Positions 53,301 to 58,594 of a stretch of 64,000 bases of DNA are shown here, piece by piece; within the stretch, counting starts at the first letter, position 1; each line of letters begins with the position of its first letter. Made by a program: the position numbers and the translations under genes. Source of the stretch: Escherichia coli (GTDB lineage: Bacteria; Pseudomonadota; Gammaproteobacteria; Enterobacterales; Enterobacteriaceae); the NCBI RefSeq assembly GCF_045037415.1, contig NZ_CP173438.1. The stretch is one strand, 5' to 3'. The notes beneath the pieces are model-generated. The model did no database searches. It was not told the DNA's origin and saw only the letters and a list, made by a program, of their open reading frames with translations.

Positions 53301-53550
53301 TACTGCCAGCTTTGTGGGAAGAGAGGGCTTTTTCCAAACGCTCCAACAGCACCTGCTCGGCATTCACACCATGCAGTTTATTCAGTTTGTGCCAGGCATC
53401 TGGCTGGGTGGCCTTTACCCAATCCATGACATCTTGCGGGTAAAGGGCGCGTTGCTGGTCATAGTGGCAGGAATGGCCTTCTTTCCAGCCATTGTTCACC
53501 AACTGCTCGGTAATATATTGTTCAAAATGCACTTCATGATGTGCAGCCAT
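50314..53550 (-). CDS. hsdR: Type I restriction enzyme R subunit (1078 aa)
   Basis: Helicase motifs: Walker A EHSAGSGKT and DEAH-box variant IIDEAHTS; N-terminal nuclease-type region; start overlaps hsdS stop. Confidence 0.9.
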   Translation of the reverse strand: MAAHHEVHFEQYITEQLVNNGWKEGHSCHYDQQRALYPQDVMDWVKATQPDAWHKLNKLHGVNAEQVLLERLEKALSSHKAGSKTGGTINVLRKGFTIAGCGTIAMGQRKPEDARNEERIARYEHNILRVVRQLKYCPTREWEIDLVFFINGLPVATAELKTDFTQSLESAIAQYKEDRLPVDPKTKRKEPLLTFKRGAVVHFAMSDTEIAMATKLAGENTYFLPFNKGHDGSTSDLPVHINLPGEDGEYPVSYFWQEIAQKDNWLRIFYSFVYVETKEVADSNGKVERKETQIFPRYHQLAAVNKMIDDARQNGAGMQYLCEHSAGSGKTSTIAWTAHDLIRLRSTDGKAVFKSVIIVTDRTVLDSQLQDAVQQLDHQYGVIKAIDREKSSESKSKQLTEALLTGTPIIVVTIQTFPYALEAILTNQSLAQSNFAVIIDEAHTSQTGSTAKGLRAALTLNLSPQELEQMSIEDILTKVQEARAMPKNVSHFAFTATPKHSTKMLFGRPKDPNQPVSDDNLPESFHLYTQRQAIDEGFILDVLENYTHYDTAYKIGENNLDEKRVDSKQARRALARWMSLHPTTVSQKVEFIIKHFKANIAHLLEGEAKAMVVTSGRPQAVKYKLAFDKYIKKHGIEGIQALVAFSGKVPGKDLGDEDSQDPLEIDFDKEYTEYNLNPDTHGADLRHEFEKTEYRVMLVANKFQTGFNQPKLVAMYLDKKISDVEAVQTLSRLNRTYPGKDTTFVIDFVNDPQTILNAFKKYDKGAQLNEVQDVNVIYDIKDILDEQNIYNHQDLELFKQARGKSILGQSPDKKSHAHKKLLAATQRPTDVFNVKLKELVDAANHWDQQYNKAHLAGDEKAANYAESQRSDFTKQREALMRFKSDLARFVKHYSYMAQLIEFGDPELENFAAFAHLLSRRLKGVTPENIDLSALVLEKFKIKYDKEPLPEAFNQVLEPIRPNYNDPADREQAFLADIIRRLNELFGDVGDEPGRRNFANGTITRVTQNPIVVEQIEKHDKSIALKGDLPQAVKQAVVQALLKEGDIARTLLKDPQVMASYVELIFDMMKQGAEQAAVK

Positions 53551-54836
53551 TACACCGCCTCCCTGACGTCTATTTTTCCTGTGACAGCCGCGTTGATCAG
53601 CGATGTGCGGTGTTCTTTTAGAAGATCAATCGATTTATCAGTCTCTTGAATCAGTAAATCAATGTTTATCGTTGCTGCACTCAAGTAATTCGTTATTGTC
53701 TTTTGCTCATCAATTGGTGGGATAGCAATACTTGTATTAGCTAGTGAAGGAATGCTCAGGTTGTAGTTACCTACCGATGTTCTTGACTGAAATGTTAATG
53801 CTTGACGAACAGATAGTGAGTTCATCGCTTCCACTAAGAAGCTAGTATCCACTCCTTGCTTTGGTGTTAACTTTATTAGGTACGACGCAAATAAATACTG
53901 CCCATTTGAATCAAAAAGCGCGCTTTGGCCGACCAGATTAGGGTTACCGTTAGTTCTGATGACTAAAATGTCGCCTCTTGATAAAAGATAAGTTAAAGCA
54001 TCAACATCACTGATATTTGCATATTTGAGATCTTCAAAATCAACATTGGTACTCTTGATGTTTGGTATCCTGAGAACAGGATAGCCAACATCAGACTGGT
54101 TACAGTCTTGAGAGGTTCCATACATAAAGTTGGAGCAAATATGCTTTATCTTTTTGACTTCCCAATGCTTCGGCACTTGCCCAATCCACTCGATGCCAGA
54201 GTCCTGCATCTCCACATTGGGATAGAGCCCCTTTGTGACCACATGGCTGATCAGTGCTTGGCGTTTTTCTTTGAGCAGCTTAATAAAGGTCTGCTTTTCC
54301 TCGATCAGACTGTCGATGCGCTGGGTTTCGCGATCAAGGAATGTGCTAACCTGCTTCTGTAATGAAATATCAATCAGTGGAACAGGTATTTCTAAAAGAT
54401 CACCAGCTGTTAGGTTCTGACGAACTCCTCCACCCAGTTTGTTATAAATATTGGTTAGGTATAGAGCAAAAAAGTACCAGTAATAGAACCTTGGGTAGAT
54501 GCTATTTGAACTCGCTGAAACACGGATGTATGCAGGGCTCATTATTCCTCGTTCATGCACAATCCCCACTCGGCTAGTCTTTATATTTTCAAGATCTATG
54601 AGCTTAAAAACTAAGTCATCTTTTTCAAAAATCTGATAAACAGAGTAATCAGAAGATTGAAGTCCTTGTAAATCGTCTAACGAGCGGTTTATGACACCTT
54701 TCATTGTTAGTGCAAGACGATTAGATTCTTTCATTCCTTGATTGATTTCTTTGCTACTCGTAAATAAACGTTTAGCTGGTACTGAGTTCCATTTCGAGTC
54801 AGATACGAAAGCATCTACTATGTTGCCAGCATTCAT
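53550..54836 (-). CDS. hsdS: Type I R-M specificity subunit (428 aa)
   Basis: Two target-recognition-domain halves separated by conserved coiled-coil-like regions (LQKQVSTFLDRETQRIDSLIEEKQTFIKLLKEKRQALI); start overlaps hsdM stop. Confidence 0.85.
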   Translation of the reverse strand: MNAGNIVDAFVSDSKWNSVPAKRLFTSSKEINQGMKESNRLALTMKGVINRSLDDLQGLQSSDYSVYQIFEKDDLVFKLIDLENIKTSRVGIVHERGIMSPAYIRVSASSNSIYPRFYYWYFFALYLTNIYNKLGGGVRQNLTAGDLLEIPVPLIDISLQKQVSTFLDRETQRIDSLIEEKQTFIKLLKEKRQALISHVVTKGLYPNVEMQDSGIEWIGQVPKHWEVKKIKHICSNFMYGTSQDCNQSDVGYPVLRIPNIKSTNVDFEDLKYANISDVDALTYLLSRGDILVIRTNGNPNLVGQSALFDSNGQYLFASYLIKLTPKQGVDTSFLVEAMNSLSVRQALTFQSRTSVGNYNLSIPSLANTSIAIPPIDEQKTITNYLSAATINIDLLIQETDKSIDLLKEHRTSLINAAVTGKIDVREAV

Positions 54837-56815
54837 TACGCCACCTCATTCAGCAGAGCCTGAATGCGCGCTTCACATGCTTTTAGCTCACGATCAATCA
54901 CACTCAACTCGCGTGGTGGCACGTATTGGTAGAAATAGCGGTTAAAGTTAATTTCATAACCGACAATGCCCACTTCGCCGTCTTTTTCATCACGCACTGA
55001 GTGATCAATAAAGGCATCCGGTACATGTGGCAGCACCTCTTGTGCGAAGTAATCTTCAACGTCGCGGTCAAAAGGAATGCTTTCGGTGTCTTTGAGTTTA
55101 GGGTCGGCGATCACTTGGCCTTTTTCATCCAGTGCAGGCTCAAATTGCGGATCAATTTTTACAAAGTGCGCAGTTAAGGCCGTAGCCAGTGCTTTTGAGC
55201 ACTTACCAAAGTCACCCTTATTGTTATTCTTCTTAACCGCCAAACGTGCCCATTCATAAGGCTGAAGGCCAAGGTTATCGGTGAGGTATTGTACCCATGC
55301 CGCTTGTTGCTCTGGTTTGAGTTTTTTAAACGTATCTTGCTGCACAAATGCAGCAATGCCCGCAGCGGTAATATCTAGTTTGGCACGCAGTGGACGCTGA
55401 ATGGTGACTTTACGGTAGGCAAAATCAGTAGTCTGGAAGATCTTACAGTTGTCACTGGCTTCAAAGCCATCGTACGCACGGACAATATCGTCAATCTGTT
55501 CATCACTCAGGTACTTGCGCTTATCGCCTTGCGATTTACGCATGGGAGTCCAAATATCTGCCAAGTTAATCAGTTGCACCTGATTCTTGCGTCTTGGCTC
55601 TTTATGGTTAGTCAAAATCCAGATGTAGGTGCCAATGCCGGTGTTGAAGAACATATCGGTTGGCAGGGCAACAATCGCTTCGACTAAGTCTTGTTCTAGC
55701 AGCCAACGGCGGATTTCTGATGGGCCTGAGCCTGCATCGCCATTAAACAGTGGCGAGCCAGAAAGGACTATACCCACTCGGCCACCACCATTTTCTGGCG
55801 TTTCCATTTTTGATACCAAGTGCAGTAAAAACAGCATTGAACCATCAGAAATACTCGGCAGGCCTGGCCCAAAGCGTCCGGCGTATTTGAGCTGTTTGTG
55901 CTCACGTTCTACTTCTTTCTTGGCTTTTTCCCACTTAATGCCAAATGGCGGGTTGGCAAGGCCGTAGTGAAACTTGTCGGCACGTAACTGATCGTCTGAT
56001 AAGGTGTTGCCTTGCTTGATGTTATTGGCATCAAAACCGCGGATCATCATATTGGTCAGCGCCATGGCATGGGTCGCGGGGTCGAGCTCTTGACCAAAAG
56101 GCACGACTTTAGCGCTGCTGCCCATTTCTTCAATTTGGCTAATGGCATCGGAAAGGAAACCGCCCGTGCCACAGGTTGGGTCATAGATGGTGCGGATCAC
56201 ACCCTTTTCACTAAAGATATCTTCATCCGCCGCCAGCACCAGTTTGGTGGCAAGACGCACGGCATCACGCGGGGTCATAAATTCCCCGGCCTTTTCATTA
56301 ACCGAACTGGCGAACTTTAGAATCAGCTCTTCATAAGCATCTGATAATACGCGGTCAGACACTACATCAGGATGCAAGTCGAGGTTGGCAAAATGGTTTA
56401 CCATGCGATACAGCAACTTGGCTTTTTCCAGATCTTCTATGGTTTGACCAAATTTAAACTCATCAAAGATGGTACGAACGTTTTTGCTGAACTGGCTGAT
56501 GTAGTGTTCTAGGTTGTCGCCGGTGTCTGACGCGCCTAAGGTTTCTAGGCTATATTCACTGGTGTTGTAAAAGGCGAATCCCGCAATTTCTGGCAACACT
56601 AAACCAAGGTCTATGCCGGATTGTTTTTCGGCCAGATAGAACTTACGAACTTCCTCACGGGTGGGTTCTAACACGCATTCAATACGACGCAGTAGCAAAA
56701 ATGGCAGGATAATCCGCGCAAAATCGGTGTGTTTGAAATCACCCCATAAATCATCTGCCATACGCCAAATAGCACTGGAGAGTTTGGCGCTTTGTTCTTT
56801 GTCTTGTAAGTTCAT
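54836..56815 (-). CDS. hsdM: Type I R-M N6-adenine DNA methyltransferase subunit (659 aa)
   Basis: SAM-binding DPTCGTGGFL and catalytic NPPF (GLANPPFG) motifs; unusually long for HsdM. Confidence 0.9.
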   Translation of the reverse strand: MNLQDKEQSAKLSSAIWRMADDLWGDFKHTDFARIILPFLLLRRIECVLEPTREEVRKFYLAEKQSGIDLGLVLPEIAGFAFYNTSEYSLETLGASDTGDNLEHYISQFSKNVRTIFDEFKFGQTIEDLEKAKLLYRMVNHFANLDLHPDVVSDRVLSDAYEELILKFASSVNEKAGEFMTPRDAVRLATKLVLAADEDIFSEKGVIRTIYDPTCGTGGFLSDAISQIEEMGSSAKVVPFGQELDPATHAMALTNMMIRGFDANNIKQGNTLSDDQLRADKFHYGLANPPFGIKWEKAKKEVEREHKQLKYAGRFGPGLPSISDGSMLFLLHLVSKMETPENGGGRVGIVLSGSPLFNGDAGSGPSEIRRWLLEQDLVEAIVALPTDMFFNTGIGTYIWILTNHKEPRRKNQVQLINLADIWTPMRKSQGDKRKYLSDEQIDDIVRAYDGFEASDNCKIFQTTDFAYRKVTIQRPLRAKLDITAAGIAAFVQQDTFKKLKPEQQAAWVQYLTDNLGLQPYEWARLAVKKNNNKGDFGKCSKALATALTAHFVKIDPQFEPALDEKGQVIADPKLKDTESIPFDRDVEDYFAQEVLPHVPDAFIDHSVRDEKDGEVGIVGYEINFNRYFYQYVPPRELSVIDRELKACEARIQALLNEVA

Positions 56816-56882
56816 TGATACTACCTAAATGAAGTTAAATCGTTAAAAAAATCAGTGTATTGTTTGGTTATTATTTTGCGTT

Positions 56883-57389
56883 CTAGCTAAAGATGGCTTG
56901 CCAACGGCAAAATGCAGAACGATGTCTGTCGGTCCATTGGGTGCAAATAACATAGGTTTTTTCATCTCGCTGGGCCACTTTAGTGGTGGAGTAGCGGTTT
57001 CGCTCTTTGGCATCTTTGGCTGCACTGCGAATGTCTTCTGGCCGTGATGATTTAGCCAGTTTGAGCACGGGGAATGACAACCCAAAAATGTTGCGACAAT
57101 AGGTTAGCTGCGTGAGGTTTTCTATTTCACTCAGTGGTAGAGCATGTTCAACCAAGTCTTGGATAGCTTCGGTTATCTCTGCATTGCTGATATTGTGTTG
57201 CGTTTGTGCAACTTCCCGTGTCTCTACTTCATTTTCAAGAGCAACAGAAAACGGAAAACCTTTGGCTTGAACGGATTTAGCTAAAAAGACGTTAATAGCC
57301 TGCTCAATAGGTAAGCCCAACTCAGCAAAGATACTCGTGGCTTTTTCAAGCAGTTGAGGGTCTATATTGGTTGCCTTCATATGACTCAC
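56883..57389 (-). CDS. RelB/DinJ-like antitoxin-fold N-terminus fused to unknown C-terminal domain (168 aa)
   Basis: N-terminus LLEKATSIFAELGLPIEQAINVFLAKSVQAKGFPF resembles DinJ-type RHH domains; about 80-aa C-terminal extension unrecognised; 67 bp upstream of hsdM, same strand. Confidence 0.55.
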   Translation of the reverse strand: MSHMKATNIDPQLLEKATSIFAELGLPIEQAINVFLAKSVQAKGFPFSVALENEVETREVAQTQHNISNAEITEAIQDLVEHALPLSEIENLTQLTYCRNIFGLSFPVLKLAKSSRPEDIRSAAKDAKERNRYSTTKVAQRDEKTYVICTQWTDRHRSAFCRWQAIFS

Positions 57390-57652
57390 AAAACCTACAA
57401 ATTGTAATTTTTGTATCCTATAGGCTTTGCATTTTCACGGCTAGCAATAAAGTCAAAAAATGAGAAATAATTGATCTTAAAAAACTTAAAACAGGCTAAC
57501 AAATCAGCAGTTACACTTGTCATGCCCTGCTAGTGAGAGGATCTTATCACTTTCGATATTGATGCAATCAGGTGCCGCGATAGAGGAAGCTTGGTCAGGT
57601 AATGGTGCCAACTTACTGATTTAGTGTATGATGGTGTTTTTGAGGTGCTCCA

Positions 57653-57928
57653 GTGGCTTCTGTTTCTATCAGCTGTCCCTCCTGTTCAGCTACTGACGGG
57701 GTGGTGCGTAACGGCAAAAGCACCGCCGGACATCAGCGCTATCTCTGCTCTCACTGCCGTAAAACATGGCAACTGCAGTTCACTTACACCGCTTCTCAAC
57801 CCGGTACGCACCAGAAAATCATTGATATGGCCATGAATGGCGTCGGATGTCGTGCCAGTGCACGCATTATGGGCGTTGGCCTCAACACGGTTTTACGTCA
57901 CTTAAAAAACTCAGGCCGCAGTCGGTAA
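57653..57928 (+). CDS. insA: IS1 InsA (91 aa)
   Basis: Zinc-finger N-terminus CPSC...CSHC and HTH; IS1 InsA sequence. Confidence 0.9.
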
Positions 57929-58083
57929 CCTCGCGCATACAGCCGGGCAGTGACGTCATCGTCTGCGCGGAAATGGACGAACAGTGGGGCTATGTCGGGG
58001 CTAAATCGCGCCAGCGCTGACTGTTTTACGCGTATGACAGGCTCCGGAAGACGGTTGTTGCGCACGTATTCGGTGAACGCACT

Positions 58084-58350
58084 ATGGCGACGCTGGGGCG
58101 TCTTATGAGCCTGCTGTCACCCTTTGACGTGGTGATATGGATGACGGATGGCTGGCCGCTGTATGAATCACGCCTGAAGGGAAAGCTGCACGTTATCAGC
58201 AAGCGTTACACTCAGCGCATTGAGCGACATAACCTGAATCTGAGACTACATCTGGCAAGGCTGGGCAGGAAGTCACTGTCGTTCTCAAAATCGGTGGAGC
58301 TGCATGACAAGGTCATCGGGCATTATCTGAACATAAAACACTATCAGTAA
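58084..58350 (+). pseudogene. insB: IS1 insB, C-terminal part downstream of a premature stop
   Basis: Only the C-terminal 88 codons form an ORF; upstream insB frame contains TGA where I recall TGG in canonical IS1. Confidence 0.7.
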
Positions 58351-58366
58351 GTTGGAGTCATTACCA

Positions 58367-58594
58367 CTATTTTAATGGATTGTTAATCTTTGCATATTCA
58401 AACGGGCTGATACATTGTTCTCTGTTCGCATCCAGAAAATCTGCCCACCACTGTAGCATAAGTCGACGTTCTTCCAGATGTTCGGCTTTATGGATATACG
58501 CAGCACGTACACCATTACGCTCCTGATGGCTCATCTGACGTTCAGCCGCTTTATCTCGTGCTGTTCTGGTCTCAATACTTCCATGCCGTTGCAA
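58367..58594 (-). pseudogene. tyrosine integrase C-terminal fragment (P4-like), truncated by IS1
   Basis: 75-aa ORF ...YIHKAEHLEERRLMLQWWADFLDA... parallels the C-terminus of the integrase at 63036 (YNHAQYLDGRREMMQWYADYIDS); abuts the IS1 right end. Confidence 0.7.

What the first reader, a model, noticed from the sequence alone, without database searches (positions are those of the whole stretch)
56883..57389. DinJ/RelB-like domain fused to an unknown C-terminal domain, directly upstream of hsdM with no toxin partner
The N-terminal 60 residues resemble DinJ-type ribbon-helix-helix antitoxins, but there is no RelE/YafQ-like toxin gene adjacent. Instead the gene sits 67 bp before hsdM on the same strand. 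It could be a transcriptional controller of the R-M operon or a sensor domain fusion.
Basis: partly seen in the sequence, partly recalled or inferred. Interest (0 to 1): 0.5.

Follow-up and report, generated by a model that had tools for sequence, protein, structure and literature searches.

The report
Antitoxin-like regulator heading a phage-defence operon
This small gene is labelled in databases as an orphan DinJ/RelB "antitoxin", but it is most likely the DNA-binding switch at the head of a mobile anti-phage operon, and its second domain is a widespread, unnamed module that is probably a sensor.

Summary
The ORF is real. It is under purifying selection (dN/dS 0.10-0.17).

Residues 1-45 match DinJ/RelB ribbon-helix-helix antitoxins. 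No toxin gene is adjacent in about 20 related loci. Residues 63-165 form a confidently predicted alpha/beta domain (pLDDT 97.6). This domain has no Pfam, NCBIfam or PDB match. It occurs in 344 protein clusters, fused to RHH, Phd/YefM, HTH, HNH, McrB-like and KAP-ATPase modules.

Here the gene is the first gene of a tightly packed operon: hsdM-hsdS-hsdR, Kiwa (kwaAB) and RhuM. Homologues head at least six kinds of defence cargo:
- type I RM
- an SNF2/DUF4391/Mod/Res set
- HEC-03
- PDC-S06
- PDC-S41
- a type II methyltransferase

A conserved 29-bp operator lies between a -10-like hexamer and the start codon in every locus: TACAA-N4-TACAA-N1-TTGTA-N4-TTGTG, at 57387-57415 here.

In the Parashewanella hymeniacidonis locus (L021), nucleotide homology covers only promoter, operator and regulator and stops at the stop codon. 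The cassette is therefore portable.

Best reading: an autorepressor of defence operons, analogous to BrxR, CapW and RptR but with a different fold. The ligand of the C-terminal domain is unknown. Nothing was tested experimentally.

The parts
56883..57380 (-). Regulator CDS, 165 aa plus stop codon. ATG at 57380-57378; stop at 56885-56883.
   Evidence: dN/dS 0.10-0.17.
57246..57380 (-). Residues 1-45: DinJ/RelB-type ribbon-helix-helix domain. It has a short N-terminal strand, two helices, and ends in the GFPF motif.
57195..57245 (-). Residues 46-62: acidic linker predicted to be disordered (net charge -3). Its length and sequence vary among homologues.
   Evidence: pLDDT below 50 for residues 46-60. 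Variable columns in alignment A1. Charge.
56886..57194 (-). Residues 63-165: conserved C-terminal domain (CTD) with order helix-helix-helix-strand-helix-strand-strand-helix. Invariant motifs are NRYST and CTQWxDRHRxAFxRW. No family model covers it.
57387..57415 (-). Predicted operator: TACAA(57415-57411)-N4-TACAA(57406-57402)-N1-TTGTA(57400-57396)-N4-TTGTG(57391-57387).
   Evidence: Inverted repeat I2. It is the only site in the 64-kb window; it matches on both strands, against 0.14 matches expected by chance. Eight fetched homologue loci with an exact match have exactly one, 16-36 nt before the start codon; other loci carry spacing variants.
57415..57420 (-). -10-like hexamer TAGGAT abutting the operator. 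All but two of the 11 loci read TAnnAT at the same place (GACAAT, TAAGTT).
   Evidence: Read directly from alignment A5 and upstream sequences. The strict sigma-70 scan did not call a promoter on this strand, so this is an inference.
56886..57473 (-). Portable promoter-operator-regulator cassette. This is the extent of nucleotide homology (84%) to the Parashewanella locus L021, which has different cargo.
   Evidence: blastn break-points. Cargo of L021 is PDC-S06.
56816..56882 (-). 67-bp spacer between the regulator and hsdM. No terminator-like site was found.
   Evidence: One search found 0 terminators in 56700-57700. The spacer is conserved in Vibrio loci L020 and L025.
54836..56815 (-). hsdM, the type I methyltransferase subunit.
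   Evidence: PADLOC MTase_I E 1.9e-243. RefSeq annotation.
53550..54836 (-). hsdS. Its start overlaps the hsdM stop.
50314..53550 (-). hsdR. Its start overlaps the hsdS stop.
49760..50314 (-). kwaA-like membrane protein (Kiwa). Its start overlaps the hsdR stop.
   Evidence: PADLOC KwaA E 9.3e-16. ORF.
48918..49760 (-). kwaB-like protein (DUF4868, Kiwa). Its start overlaps the kwaA stop.
   Evidence: PADLOC KwaB E 7.1e-14.
47848..48897 (-). RhuM family protein / PDC-S05. It is the last same-strand gene of the cluster, 20 bp after kwaB.
   Evidence: PADLOC PDC-S05 E 8.4e-167. RefSeq annotation.
57598..58365 (+). IS1 copy about 218 bp upstream of the regulator ATG. It marks the upstream limit of the native sequence. 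Ends are approximate.

Best explanation
The gene encodes a two-domain transcription factor that controls its own promoter, and with it the defence operon behind it. That operon is hsdM-hsdS-hsdR, then kwaA-kwaB, then rhuM.

Proposed mechanism, all inferred:
- The N-terminal DinJ/RelB-type ribbon-helix-helix domain dimerises and binds the 29-bp operator made of four TACAA pentamers (57387-57415).
- The operator sits between a -10-like hexamer and the ribosome-binding site, so an occupied operator would block RNA polymerase. This gives negative autoregulation of the whole operon.
- The promoter, operator and regulator form a cassette of about 590 bp that has been joined to many different defence cargos on mobile elements.
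- The conserved 103-residue C-terminal domain is a separate module. It is shared with McrB-like, HNH and KAP-ATPase defence proteins. Most likely it is a nucleic-acid-reading or signal-sensing domain that tunes or relieves repression, for example on infection or on arrival in a new host.

Shown here: the domain layout, conservation, the conserved operator, first-gene position, diversity of cargo, and the cassette boundary.

Inferred: DNA binding, repression, which domain reads the operator, and any ligand.
For: RHH homology.

No toxin partner in about 20 loci.

Always the first gene on the same strand as the cargo. It often overlaps the next gene's start, for example L006 8495/8495, L009 8498/8498, and a 10-nt overlap in L030.

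No terminator in the 67-bp spacer.

Cargo classes:
- type I RM + Kiwa + RhuM
- SNF2/DUF4391/N6_N4 methyltransferase/ResIII
- HEC-03B/A + RNA ligase
- PDC-S06, followed by PtuA/PDC-M01
- type II methyltransferase behind the remote homologue P0056
- PDC-S41 behind the remote homologue P0054

Operator: conserved in position and sequence where the flanks are unrelated. It is unique in the window.

Cassette: nucleotide homology to L021 runs 57473->56886 and stops at the stop codon.

Operator versus domain: a related TACA/TGTA motif occurs upstream of the distant RHH+CTD proteins (L016, L027). It is absent upstream of one Phd+CTD locus (L018) and the HTH_17+CTD locus (L019). This suggests the N-terminal domain sets operator specificity and the CTD is the constant module.

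CTD fusion partners: McrB-like GTPase with two N-terminal copies (E 3.7e-22), QatA-like KAP ATPases, HNH, HSDR_N, and SeqA-C-like domains.

Precedents for regulators at the head of defence islands: RptR (PMC12255303); BrxR (PMC9122601, PMC9122589); CapW (PMC9122588).
Against: - No experiment was done. DNA binding, repression and co-transcription are all inferred.
- The strict sigma-70 scan found no promoter on the minus strand. The -35 region is poor.
- The N-terminal strand is short and not basic; the domain has net charge 0. The CTD, not the RHH ribbon, could therefore be what reads the operator.
- One Phd+CTD locus (L029) also has TTGTACAA repeats, so which domain matches the operator is not settled.
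- The operator 21-mer alone is not diagnostic. 41 of 52 metagenome matches lie in AT-rich DNA with no regulator.
- The sample of independent loci is small, and several are short contigs.
Confidence: 0.6

Rival explanations
1. It is an orphan or degenerate type II antitoxin, as RefSeq names it. The RelE/YafQ-type toxin would have been lost or be encoded elsewhere, and the position next to hsdM would be incidental.
For: The N-terminus matches RelB/DinJ profiles. PGAP names it a RelB/DinJ family antitoxin.
Against: - No toxin gene is adjacent in any locus examined.
- The usual short toxin-wrapping tail is replaced by a 103-residue globular domain that is more conserved than the RHH.
- The full length is under purifying selection.
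- It is always placed first, on the same strand as defence cargo.
Confidence: 0.05
2. It is a fused toxin-antitoxin or abortive-infection effector. The C-terminal domain would be a toxic enzyme held in check by the N-terminal antitoxin-like domain, so the protein would be a defence component in its own right.
For: Antitoxin-type N-termini (RHH, Phd/YefM) recur in front of the CTD. The CTD has conserved polar and aromatic residues: R129, Y130, Q148, W149, R154. Fused toxin-antitoxin defence proteins are known from general knowledge (e.g. CapRel).
Against: - No match to any toxin family in Pfam, NCBIfam, PADLOC or PDB.
- Across the wide family only R, Y and W residues plus hydrophobic positions are near-invariant. 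There is no conserved acid/His catalytic set.
- The same domain sits where McrB homologues carry their DNA-reading domain, and next to HNH nucleases that already provide catalysis.
Confidence: 0.07
3. It is a working subunit or modulator of the defence machinery rather than a transcription factor. For example, a DNA-state reader that targets or restrains the downstream enzymes (restriction alleviation or establishment) through protein-DNA or protein-protein contacts.
For: The CTD is fused to McrB-like, HNH, KAP-ATPase and HSDR_N effectors. It co-occurs with SeqA-C-like domains. This is the same fusion pattern that led others to predict the RAMA and HARE-HTH domains as modified-DNA readers (PMC4738411). 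Most cargos include a methyltransferase.
Against: - Regulators that are 84-88% identical sit in front of unrelated cargo: HsdM versus PDC-S06. A specific protein partner is therefore unlikely.
- Several cargos have no methyltransferase: HEC-03, PDC-S06, PDC-S41.
- The conserved palindromic site at the gene's own promoter points to autoregulation.
Confidence: 0.13
4. It is a plain autorepressor with no sensing. The C-terminal domain would serve only to assemble dimers into tetramers, so that two RHH dimers bind the four-pentamer operator cooperatively, as the C-terminal domain of NikR does structurally.
For: The operator has four repeats in a 2+2 symmetric layout, which fits a dimer of dimers. 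RHH proteins with C-terminal tetramerisation domains are known from general knowledge (NikR). Negative autoregulation alone would give a burst of expression on transfer to a new host.
Against: - The CTD also occurs alone, in tandem copies, and fused to enzymes with their own oligomerisation logic, such as McrB-like hexamers.
- Its most conserved residues are polar or aromatic and lie on strands and loops, as expected for ligand or nucleic-acid contact.
Confidence: 0.15

Closest known systems
DinJ / RelB ribbon-helix-helix antitoxins (TIGR02384, PF04221)
   Same: The N-terminal ~45-70 residues are homologous: short strand, two helices and the GFPF/LPF motif. Those antitoxins also repress their own promoter through palindromic operators (general knowledge).
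   Different: There is no RelE/YafQ toxin gene. The extended toxin-binding tail is replaced by a linker plus a 103-residue globular domain. The downstream genes are defence systems, not a toxin.
RptR, repressor upstream of a type I RM-DarTG island in EPEC (PMC12255303)
   Same: A small first ORF directly upstream of hsdM in an E. coli mobile defence island that embeds a second system. RptR represses its own promoter through repeats. The family is associated with type I RM across Gammaproteobacteria.
   Different: RptR is a roughly 11-kDa (tagged) all-helical four-helix dimer that binds TAGCTA. Here the protein is RHH plus a new domain, the site is built of TACAA pentamers, TAGCTA occurs only at chance frequency, and the cargo range is wider.
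BrxR / CapW WYL-domain regulators of defence systems (PMC9122601, PMC9122589, PMC9122588)
   Same: The same logic: a DNA-binding domain plus a putative sensor domain, encoded at the head of many different defence systems and islands, binding inverted repeats in its own promoter. In V. parahaemolyticus a BrxR-headed Wadjet system sits right beside an RHH-CTD-headed system.
   Different: Unrelated folds: wHTH-WYL-WCX against RHH-linker-CTD. There is no WYL or BrxR Pfam match. The ligand of the CTD is unknown.
Controller (C) proteins of type II R-M systems
   Same: Small DNA-binding proteins encoded just upstream of R-M genes that time their expression through operators at their own promoter (as summarised in PMC12255303 and PMC12707154).
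   Different: C proteins are Xre-type HTH proteins that bind C-boxes and typically activate the endonuclease gene. This protein precedes hsdM and non-RM cargo, and its operator position suggests repression.
NikR (RHH plus C-terminal regulatory domain); SeqA (RHH-like N-terminus, flexible linker, C-terminal DNA reader)
RAMA and HARE-HTH predicted modified-DNA reader domains (PMC4738411)
   Same: The same fusion pattern as the CTD: joined to HNH and other nucleases, to McrB-like AAA+ domains and to SeqA domains in restriction contexts.
   Different: No Pfam RAMA or HARE-HTH match in 110 CTD-bearing sequences scanned. These domains were not reported as heading operons fused to antitoxin-type DNA-binding domains. 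The resemblance is in context only.

Membership tests
Type II toxin-antitoxin RelB/DinJ antitoxin | N-terminal ribbon-helix-helix domain matching the family profile | tested here: met
Type II toxin-antitoxin RelB/DinJ antitoxin | Adjacent, co-transcribed cognate toxin gene (RelE/YafQ/ParE type) | tested here: not met
   The neighbours are hsdM and IS1. No small toxin gene is present in about 20 homologous loci.
Type II toxin-antitoxin RelB/DinJ antitoxin | Short C-terminal toxin-binding extension | tested here: not met
   It is replaced by a disordered linker plus a 103-residue globular domain (pLDDT 97.6).
Type II toxin-antitoxin RelB/DinJ antitoxin | Neutralises a toxin; conditional cooperativity at the operator | not testable with these tools
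   Needs genetics and biochemistry.
Defence-operon transcription regulators (functional class: BrxR, CapW, RptR) | Encoded at the head of, and on the same strand as, diverse defence systems | tested here: met
   Six cargo classes. Cassette boundary at the stop codon.
Defence-operon transcription regulators (functional class: BrxR, CapW, RptR) | Conserved repeat or palindrome in its own promoter | tested here: met
   Four TACAA pentamers at 57387-57415, conserved across loci.
Defence-operon transcription regulators (functional class: BrxR, CapW, RptR) | Binds that site and represses the operon | not testable with these tools
   Needs EMSA or footprinting, and reporter assays.
BrxR/CapW (WYL) family | wHTH-WYL-WCX domain architecture | tested here: not met
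   No WYL, WHD_BrxR or BrxR_CTD Pfam match. The fold differs.
RptR family | Small (~11 kDa tagged) four-helix dimer binding TAGCTA repeats in the promoter | tested here: not met
   The fold is RHH plus an alpha/beta domain. TAGCTA occurs at chance frequency and not in the promoter. RptR description.
SeqA | C-terminal domain homologous to SeqA-C (PF03925) | tested here: not met
RAMA / HARE-HTH modified-DNA readers | Sequence match to the domain profile | tested here: not met
   No such Pfam family among hits for 60 and 50 CTD-bearing sequences.
RAMA / HARE-HTH modified-DNA readers | Binding to modified (m6A) DNA | not testable with these tools
   Needs binding assays with methylated and unmethylated DNA.

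The most novel reading that the evidence does not exclude
The C-terminal domain is a previously unnamed nucleic-acid or modified-DNA reader. Bacteria would use it in two ways. In one, it is the targeting head of McrB-like, HNH and KAP-ATPase restriction-type effectors. In the other, fused to antitoxin-type DNA-binding domains, it is the sensor of a portable switch that turns whole defence operons (R-M, Kiwa, HEC-03, PDC-S06 and others) on. The trigger would be foreign or wrongly modified DNA, or another infection cue. This would be a functional counterpart of the WYL domain in BrxR and CapW, with a new fold.
Probability: 0.3. Interest if true: 0.75.

Novelty: new variant of a known kind. Interest (0 to 1): 0.6.

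Why it matters
How anti-phage systems are kept quiet and then switched on is poorly understood. Only a few regulator families are described: C proteins, BrxR/CapW, CapH/CapP and RptR.

This finding adds a candidate family with a different fold and a clearly defined operator. It comes as a roughly 590-bp promoter-operator-regulator cassette that has been attached to at least six kinds of defence cargo on islands and plasmids.

It also corrects a systematic mis-annotation. The gene is named a "RelB/DinJ family antitoxin" in the E. coli records listed (76 complete genomes carry this DNA) and in Vibrio, Photobacterium, Shewanella, Dickeya and Pectobacterium.

It further flags a widespread, unmodelled protein domain: 344 clusters at 50% identity. 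Its fusion partners (McrB-like, HNH, KAP ATPase, SeqA-like) suggest a role in reading DNA or infection signals.

The operator and the two-domain layout make the idea directly testable by reporter and gel-shift experiments.

Tried and rejected

3. A hairpin or inverted repeat over the hsdM start codon (56807-56837). It is not in the minimum-free-energy fold, and the repeat degrades in the Vibrio orthologous spacers. Treated as chance.

4. RptR-type control. TAGCTA occurs 9 times against 8.3 expected in the window, and none is in the promoter.

5. Phage origin. No homologue was found in the phage GenBank set or in IMG/VR contigs.

6. A metagenome scan with the operator 21-mer, to widen the cargo list. 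Only 11 of 52 hits carry the regulator: 10 are the E. coli island and 1 is the Vibrio SNF2 type. The other 41 are AT-rich matches with no regulator. No new cargo was found, and the motif alone is not diagnostic.

7. The genome-contig scan found only 7 loci. The third homology search, with the broad CTD profile, returned mostly the close family and no domain names.

8. Contexts of the distant Phd+CTD and HTH_17+CTD proteins were short contigs with mostly unclassifiable neighbours.

9. The sigma-70 consensus scan found no promoter on the minus strand. The -10 assignment therefore rests on cross-locus conservation only.
Full report

The window is E. coli DNA. Identical sequence occurs in 76 of 5426 complete genomes.

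An ORF runs 56883..57389 on the minus strand, 168 aa from a GTG. RefSeq (WP_000648433.1, 498 nt) and almost all homologues start three codons later, at the ATG at 57380. This gives 165 aa beginning MKAT....

The stop codon is at 56883-56885 and the hsdM ATG at 56815.

Residues 7-78 match NCBIfam TIGR02384 RelB_DinJ at E 1.7e-10 and 41 bits, just under the curated 45.65-bit cut-off. They also match Pfam RelB at E 4.6e-5 and a PHROG of unknown function. PADLOC has no model for the protein.

The gene is under purifying selection. dN/dS against Vibrio, Parashewanella and Shewanella orthologues is 0.10-0.17.

**2. The protein**

There are 53 clusters of full-length homologues (about 160-170 aa) in Vibrio, Photobacterium, Shewanella, Aeromonas, Dickeya, Pectobacterium and Lonsdalea.

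In their alignment the C-terminal 100 residues are more conserved than the RHH. NRYST and CTQWxDRHRxAFxRW are invariant.

AlphaFold2 gives three parts:
- an RHH-type N-terminus, with helices at 8-20 and 25-40
- a disordered acidic linker at 46-60
- a compact C-terminal domain (CTD)

Modelled alone with a 50-sequence alignment, the CTD reaches pLDDT 97.6. Its order is helix-helix-helix-strand-helix-strand-strand-helix.

The CTD matches no known family:
- no Pfam family, for the query or for 16, 50 and 60 relatives
- no NCBIfam model
- no PDB sequence

Foldseek against AFDB50 finds 93 hits at E<=1e-3. The top 50 listed all look like the same domain in uncharacterised proteins, and none carries a name for it.

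**3. The CTD is a widespread mobile domain**

A profile of the CTD finds 344 representative clusters at E<=1e-3 among 1.84 billion representatives.

The commonest layout is a 50-100-residue N-terminal extension followed by the CTD at the very C-terminus. Stand-alone copies and longer proteins also occur.

The N-terminal partners include:
- DinJ-like RHH (P0054, P0056)
- Phd/YefM (P0060, P0061, P0064)
- HTH_17 (P0067) and DUF1413
- effector modules: HNH (P0059; also an unannotated ORF on IncC plasmid pKAZ2)
- a McrB-like GTPase preceded by two CTD copies (P0058; McrB model E 3.7e-22)
- QatA-like KAP ATPases (P0128, P0181)
- HSDR_N_2, DUF3427 and DUF6946

This fusion pattern is the same one that led Iyer and colleagues to predict RAMA and HARE-HTH as modified-DNA readers (PMC4738411). 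No RAMA or HARE-HTH profile match was obtained, so that remains an analogy of context.

**4. A lead that failed: SeqA**

On testing, the lead did not hold:
- hhalign gives 0.2-0.4% probability with narrow, broad and mixed profiles.
- The SeqA hits in P0156, P0136 and P0144 lie in a separate domain upstream of the CTD.

The CTD therefore co-occurs with SeqA-like domains but is not one by sequence. Only a faint structural resemblance remains.

**5. Genomic context**

In the window the gene is followed on the same strand by:
- hsdM (54836-56815)
- hsdS (53550-54836)
- hsdR (50314-53550)
- a KwaA-like membrane protein (49760-50314; E 9e-16)
- a KwaB-like protein (48918-49760; E 7e-14)
- RhuM/PDC-S05 (47848-48897; E 8e-167)

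The stop and start codons from hsdM through kwaB overlap. No terminator-like site lies in 56700-57700. An IS1 copy sits about 218 bp upstream.

Homologues are always the first gene, on the same strand as different cargo:

| Cargo | Loci |
|---|---|
| SNF2 helicase + DUF4391 + N6_N4 methyltransferase (sometimes with AAA_21/DUF4276 or Abi_2) + ResIII enzyme | Shewanella, V. rhizosphaerae, Lonsdalea, V. parahaemolyticus, a metagenomic lineage, a Photobacterium plasmid beside a Tn3 transposase |
| HEC-03B/HEC-03A + RNA ligase | Aeromonas |
| PDC-S06 (E=0), then PtuA/PDC-M01 | Parashewanella |
| The same type I RM-Kiwa island | two Vibrio |
| Type II methyltransferase | behind the remote RHH+CTD protein P0056 |
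| PDC-S41 (E 2e-210) | behind the remote RHH+CTD protein P0054 |

In the SNF2 loci the regulator's stop overlaps the next start, which implies co-transcription.

The Parashewanella regulator is 85% identical to this one. Nucleotide homology between the two loci runs only from 57473 to 56886. That covers promoter, operator and coding sequence, and ends at the stop codon. Fragments of hsdR and rhuM persist further downstream in that locus. The promoter-operator-regulator unit is thus a portable cassette whose cargo has been exchanged.

The family was not found in phage genomes or viral contigs.

**6. The operator**

The repeat finder reports a 13+1+13 near-palindrome at 57388-57414.

Read on the coding strand it is TACAA-N4-TACAA-N1-TTGTA-N4-TTGTG, at 57415-57387. 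It lies directly after a TAGGAT hexamer and ends 7 nt before the ATG.

The same arrangement, with small spacing changes, lies at the same place in every homologous locus, although the DNA further upstream is unrelated. All but two of the 11 loci read have a TAnnAT hexamer abutting it.

The core pattern occurs at only one site in the 64-kb window, where it matches on both strands; 0.14 matches are expected by chance. In the eight fetched homologue loci with an exact match it occurs exactly once, 16-36 nt before the start codon.

Related TACA/TGTA palindromes precede the remote RHH+CTD genes (L016, L027). One Phd+CTD locus (L018) and the HTH_17+CTD locus (L019) have other sequences. A second Phd+CTD locus (L029) does contain TTGTACAA repeats.

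On balance the operator tracks the N-terminal domain, but the question is not settled.

Two caveats apply:
- The strict sigma-70 scan called no promoter on this strand.
- The 21-mer alone is not diagnostic. In the metagenome scan 41 of 52 matches were AT-rich DNA with no regulator.

**7. Mechanism proposed**

- Shown: two-domain layout; purifying selection; no toxin partner; first-gene position ahead of six kinds of defence cargo; conserved symmetric site between the -10 region and the ribosome-binding site; a cassette boundary at the stop codon.
- Inferred: the RHH domain dimerises and binds the four-pentamer operator, probably as a dimer of dimers. This would occlude the promoter and negatively autoregulate the whole operon.
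- Inferred: the CTD is the constant signal module. From its fusion partners it most likely reads a nucleic-acid feature or an infection cue, and tunes or relieves repression. This parallels the WYL domain of BrxR and CapW.

I put 0.6 on the regulator model as a whole and about 0.3 on the sensor/reader role of the CTD.

Rivals considered:
- orphan antitoxin (0.05)
- fused toxin (0.07)
- a working subunit or modulator of the enzymes (0.13)
- a plain autorepressor whose CTD only builds tetramers (0.15)

**8. Comparison with what is known**

The N-terminus is a member of the DinJ/RelB RHH family. The protein as a whole fails two defining features of a type II antitoxin: an adjacent toxin gene and a toxin-binding tail.

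The closest functional analogue is RptR. It is a small four-helix repressor (about 11 kDa as the tagged monomer) encoded as the first ORF of an E. coli type I RM-DarTG island, and it binds TAGCTA (PMC12255303). The position and logic are the same, but the fold and site are unrelated.

BrxR and CapW share the pattern of a DNA-binding domain plus a sensor, placed ahead of many defence systems (PMC9122601, PMC9122588). Their folds are also unrelated.

Six full-text searches of the held library found no paper describing this RHH-CTD family or naming the CTD. The library does not cover subscription journals, so this is absence of evidence only.

**9. Verdict**

It is a new variant of a known kind: a defence-operon regulator with a new domain combination, a defined operator, and a widespread unnamed C-terminal domain. 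It is currently mis-annotated as an antitoxin.

Interest 0.6.

Noticed in passing
window 47848-50314 (-): A Kiwa-like pair (KwaA 49760-50314, KwaB 48918-49760) and RhuM/PDC-S05 (47848-48897) follow hsdR directly. The KwaA start overlaps the hsdR stop and the KwaB start overlaps the KwaA stop. RefSeq calls the first two hypothetical. The type I RM locus is really a three-system defence operon.
   Followed up: partly
window 43187-44320 and 44734-45867 (-): Two ORFs encoding identical 377-aa transposase-like proteins lie in tandem, about 400 bp apart. They look like IS110-type from the sequence, but this was not profiled.
   Followed up: no
window ~57598-58594: An IS1 copy (annotated with a frameshift and an internal stop in RefSeq) is inserted about 218 bp upstream of the regulator. 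It abuts a fragment of a tyrosine integrase (58367-58594). The island lies next to tRNA-Sec in the RefSeq copy, together with a tia-like outer-membrane protein, a phosphoethanolamine transferase, a TPR protein and an intact integrase. A mobI(A/C) gene lies beyond RhuM.
   Followed up: no
L021 10046-10286: Behind PDC-S06 in the Parashewanella locus lie short remnants of the rhuM 5' part and the hsdR 3' end, 80-82% identical to the window. This looks like a scar of cargo replacement behind the same regulator cassette.
   Followed up: partly
L010-L012 1371-7879 and 8001 onward: In V. parahaemolyticus a BrxR-type WYL regulator with a Wadjet set (MksB/E/F + JetD) sits immediately upstream of the RHH-CTD-headed SNF2/DUF4391/Mod/Res system. 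Two different regulator types therefore head adjacent defence systems in one island.
   Followed up: no
proteins P0156, P0136, P0144: These uncharacterised proteins combine a SeqA-C-like domain (weak Pfam and phmmer matches) with the CTD further downstream. P0058, P0132 and P0134 carry two CTD copies in tandem.
   Followed up: partly
L031 7770-8483 (IncC plasmid pKAZ2, KR827391.1, record 91656-92132 region): An unannotated 237-aa ORF encodes an HNH-like N-terminus (assigned by eye from its similarity to P0059; no PADLOC match, not scanned against Pfam) fused to the CTD. It lies on a conjugative IncC plasmid, in a stretch with no listed genes.
   Followed up: partly
L045, L056, L064, L065, L067 (freshwater metagenome contigs): The operator-like 21-mer here is part of a longer array of TTACAAAT/TACAATTGTA repeats that is nearly identical across five contigs, with no RHH-CTD gene nearby. 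It may be an unrelated iteron-like repeat family.
   Followed up: no
L022 7500-8033: In an uncultured Shewanella contig the regulator is followed by a perfect hairpin containing two TAGCTA motifs. A truncated hsdM N-terminal fragment comes next, and then a full hsdM about 520 bp downstream. The locus looks rearranged.
   Followed up: no
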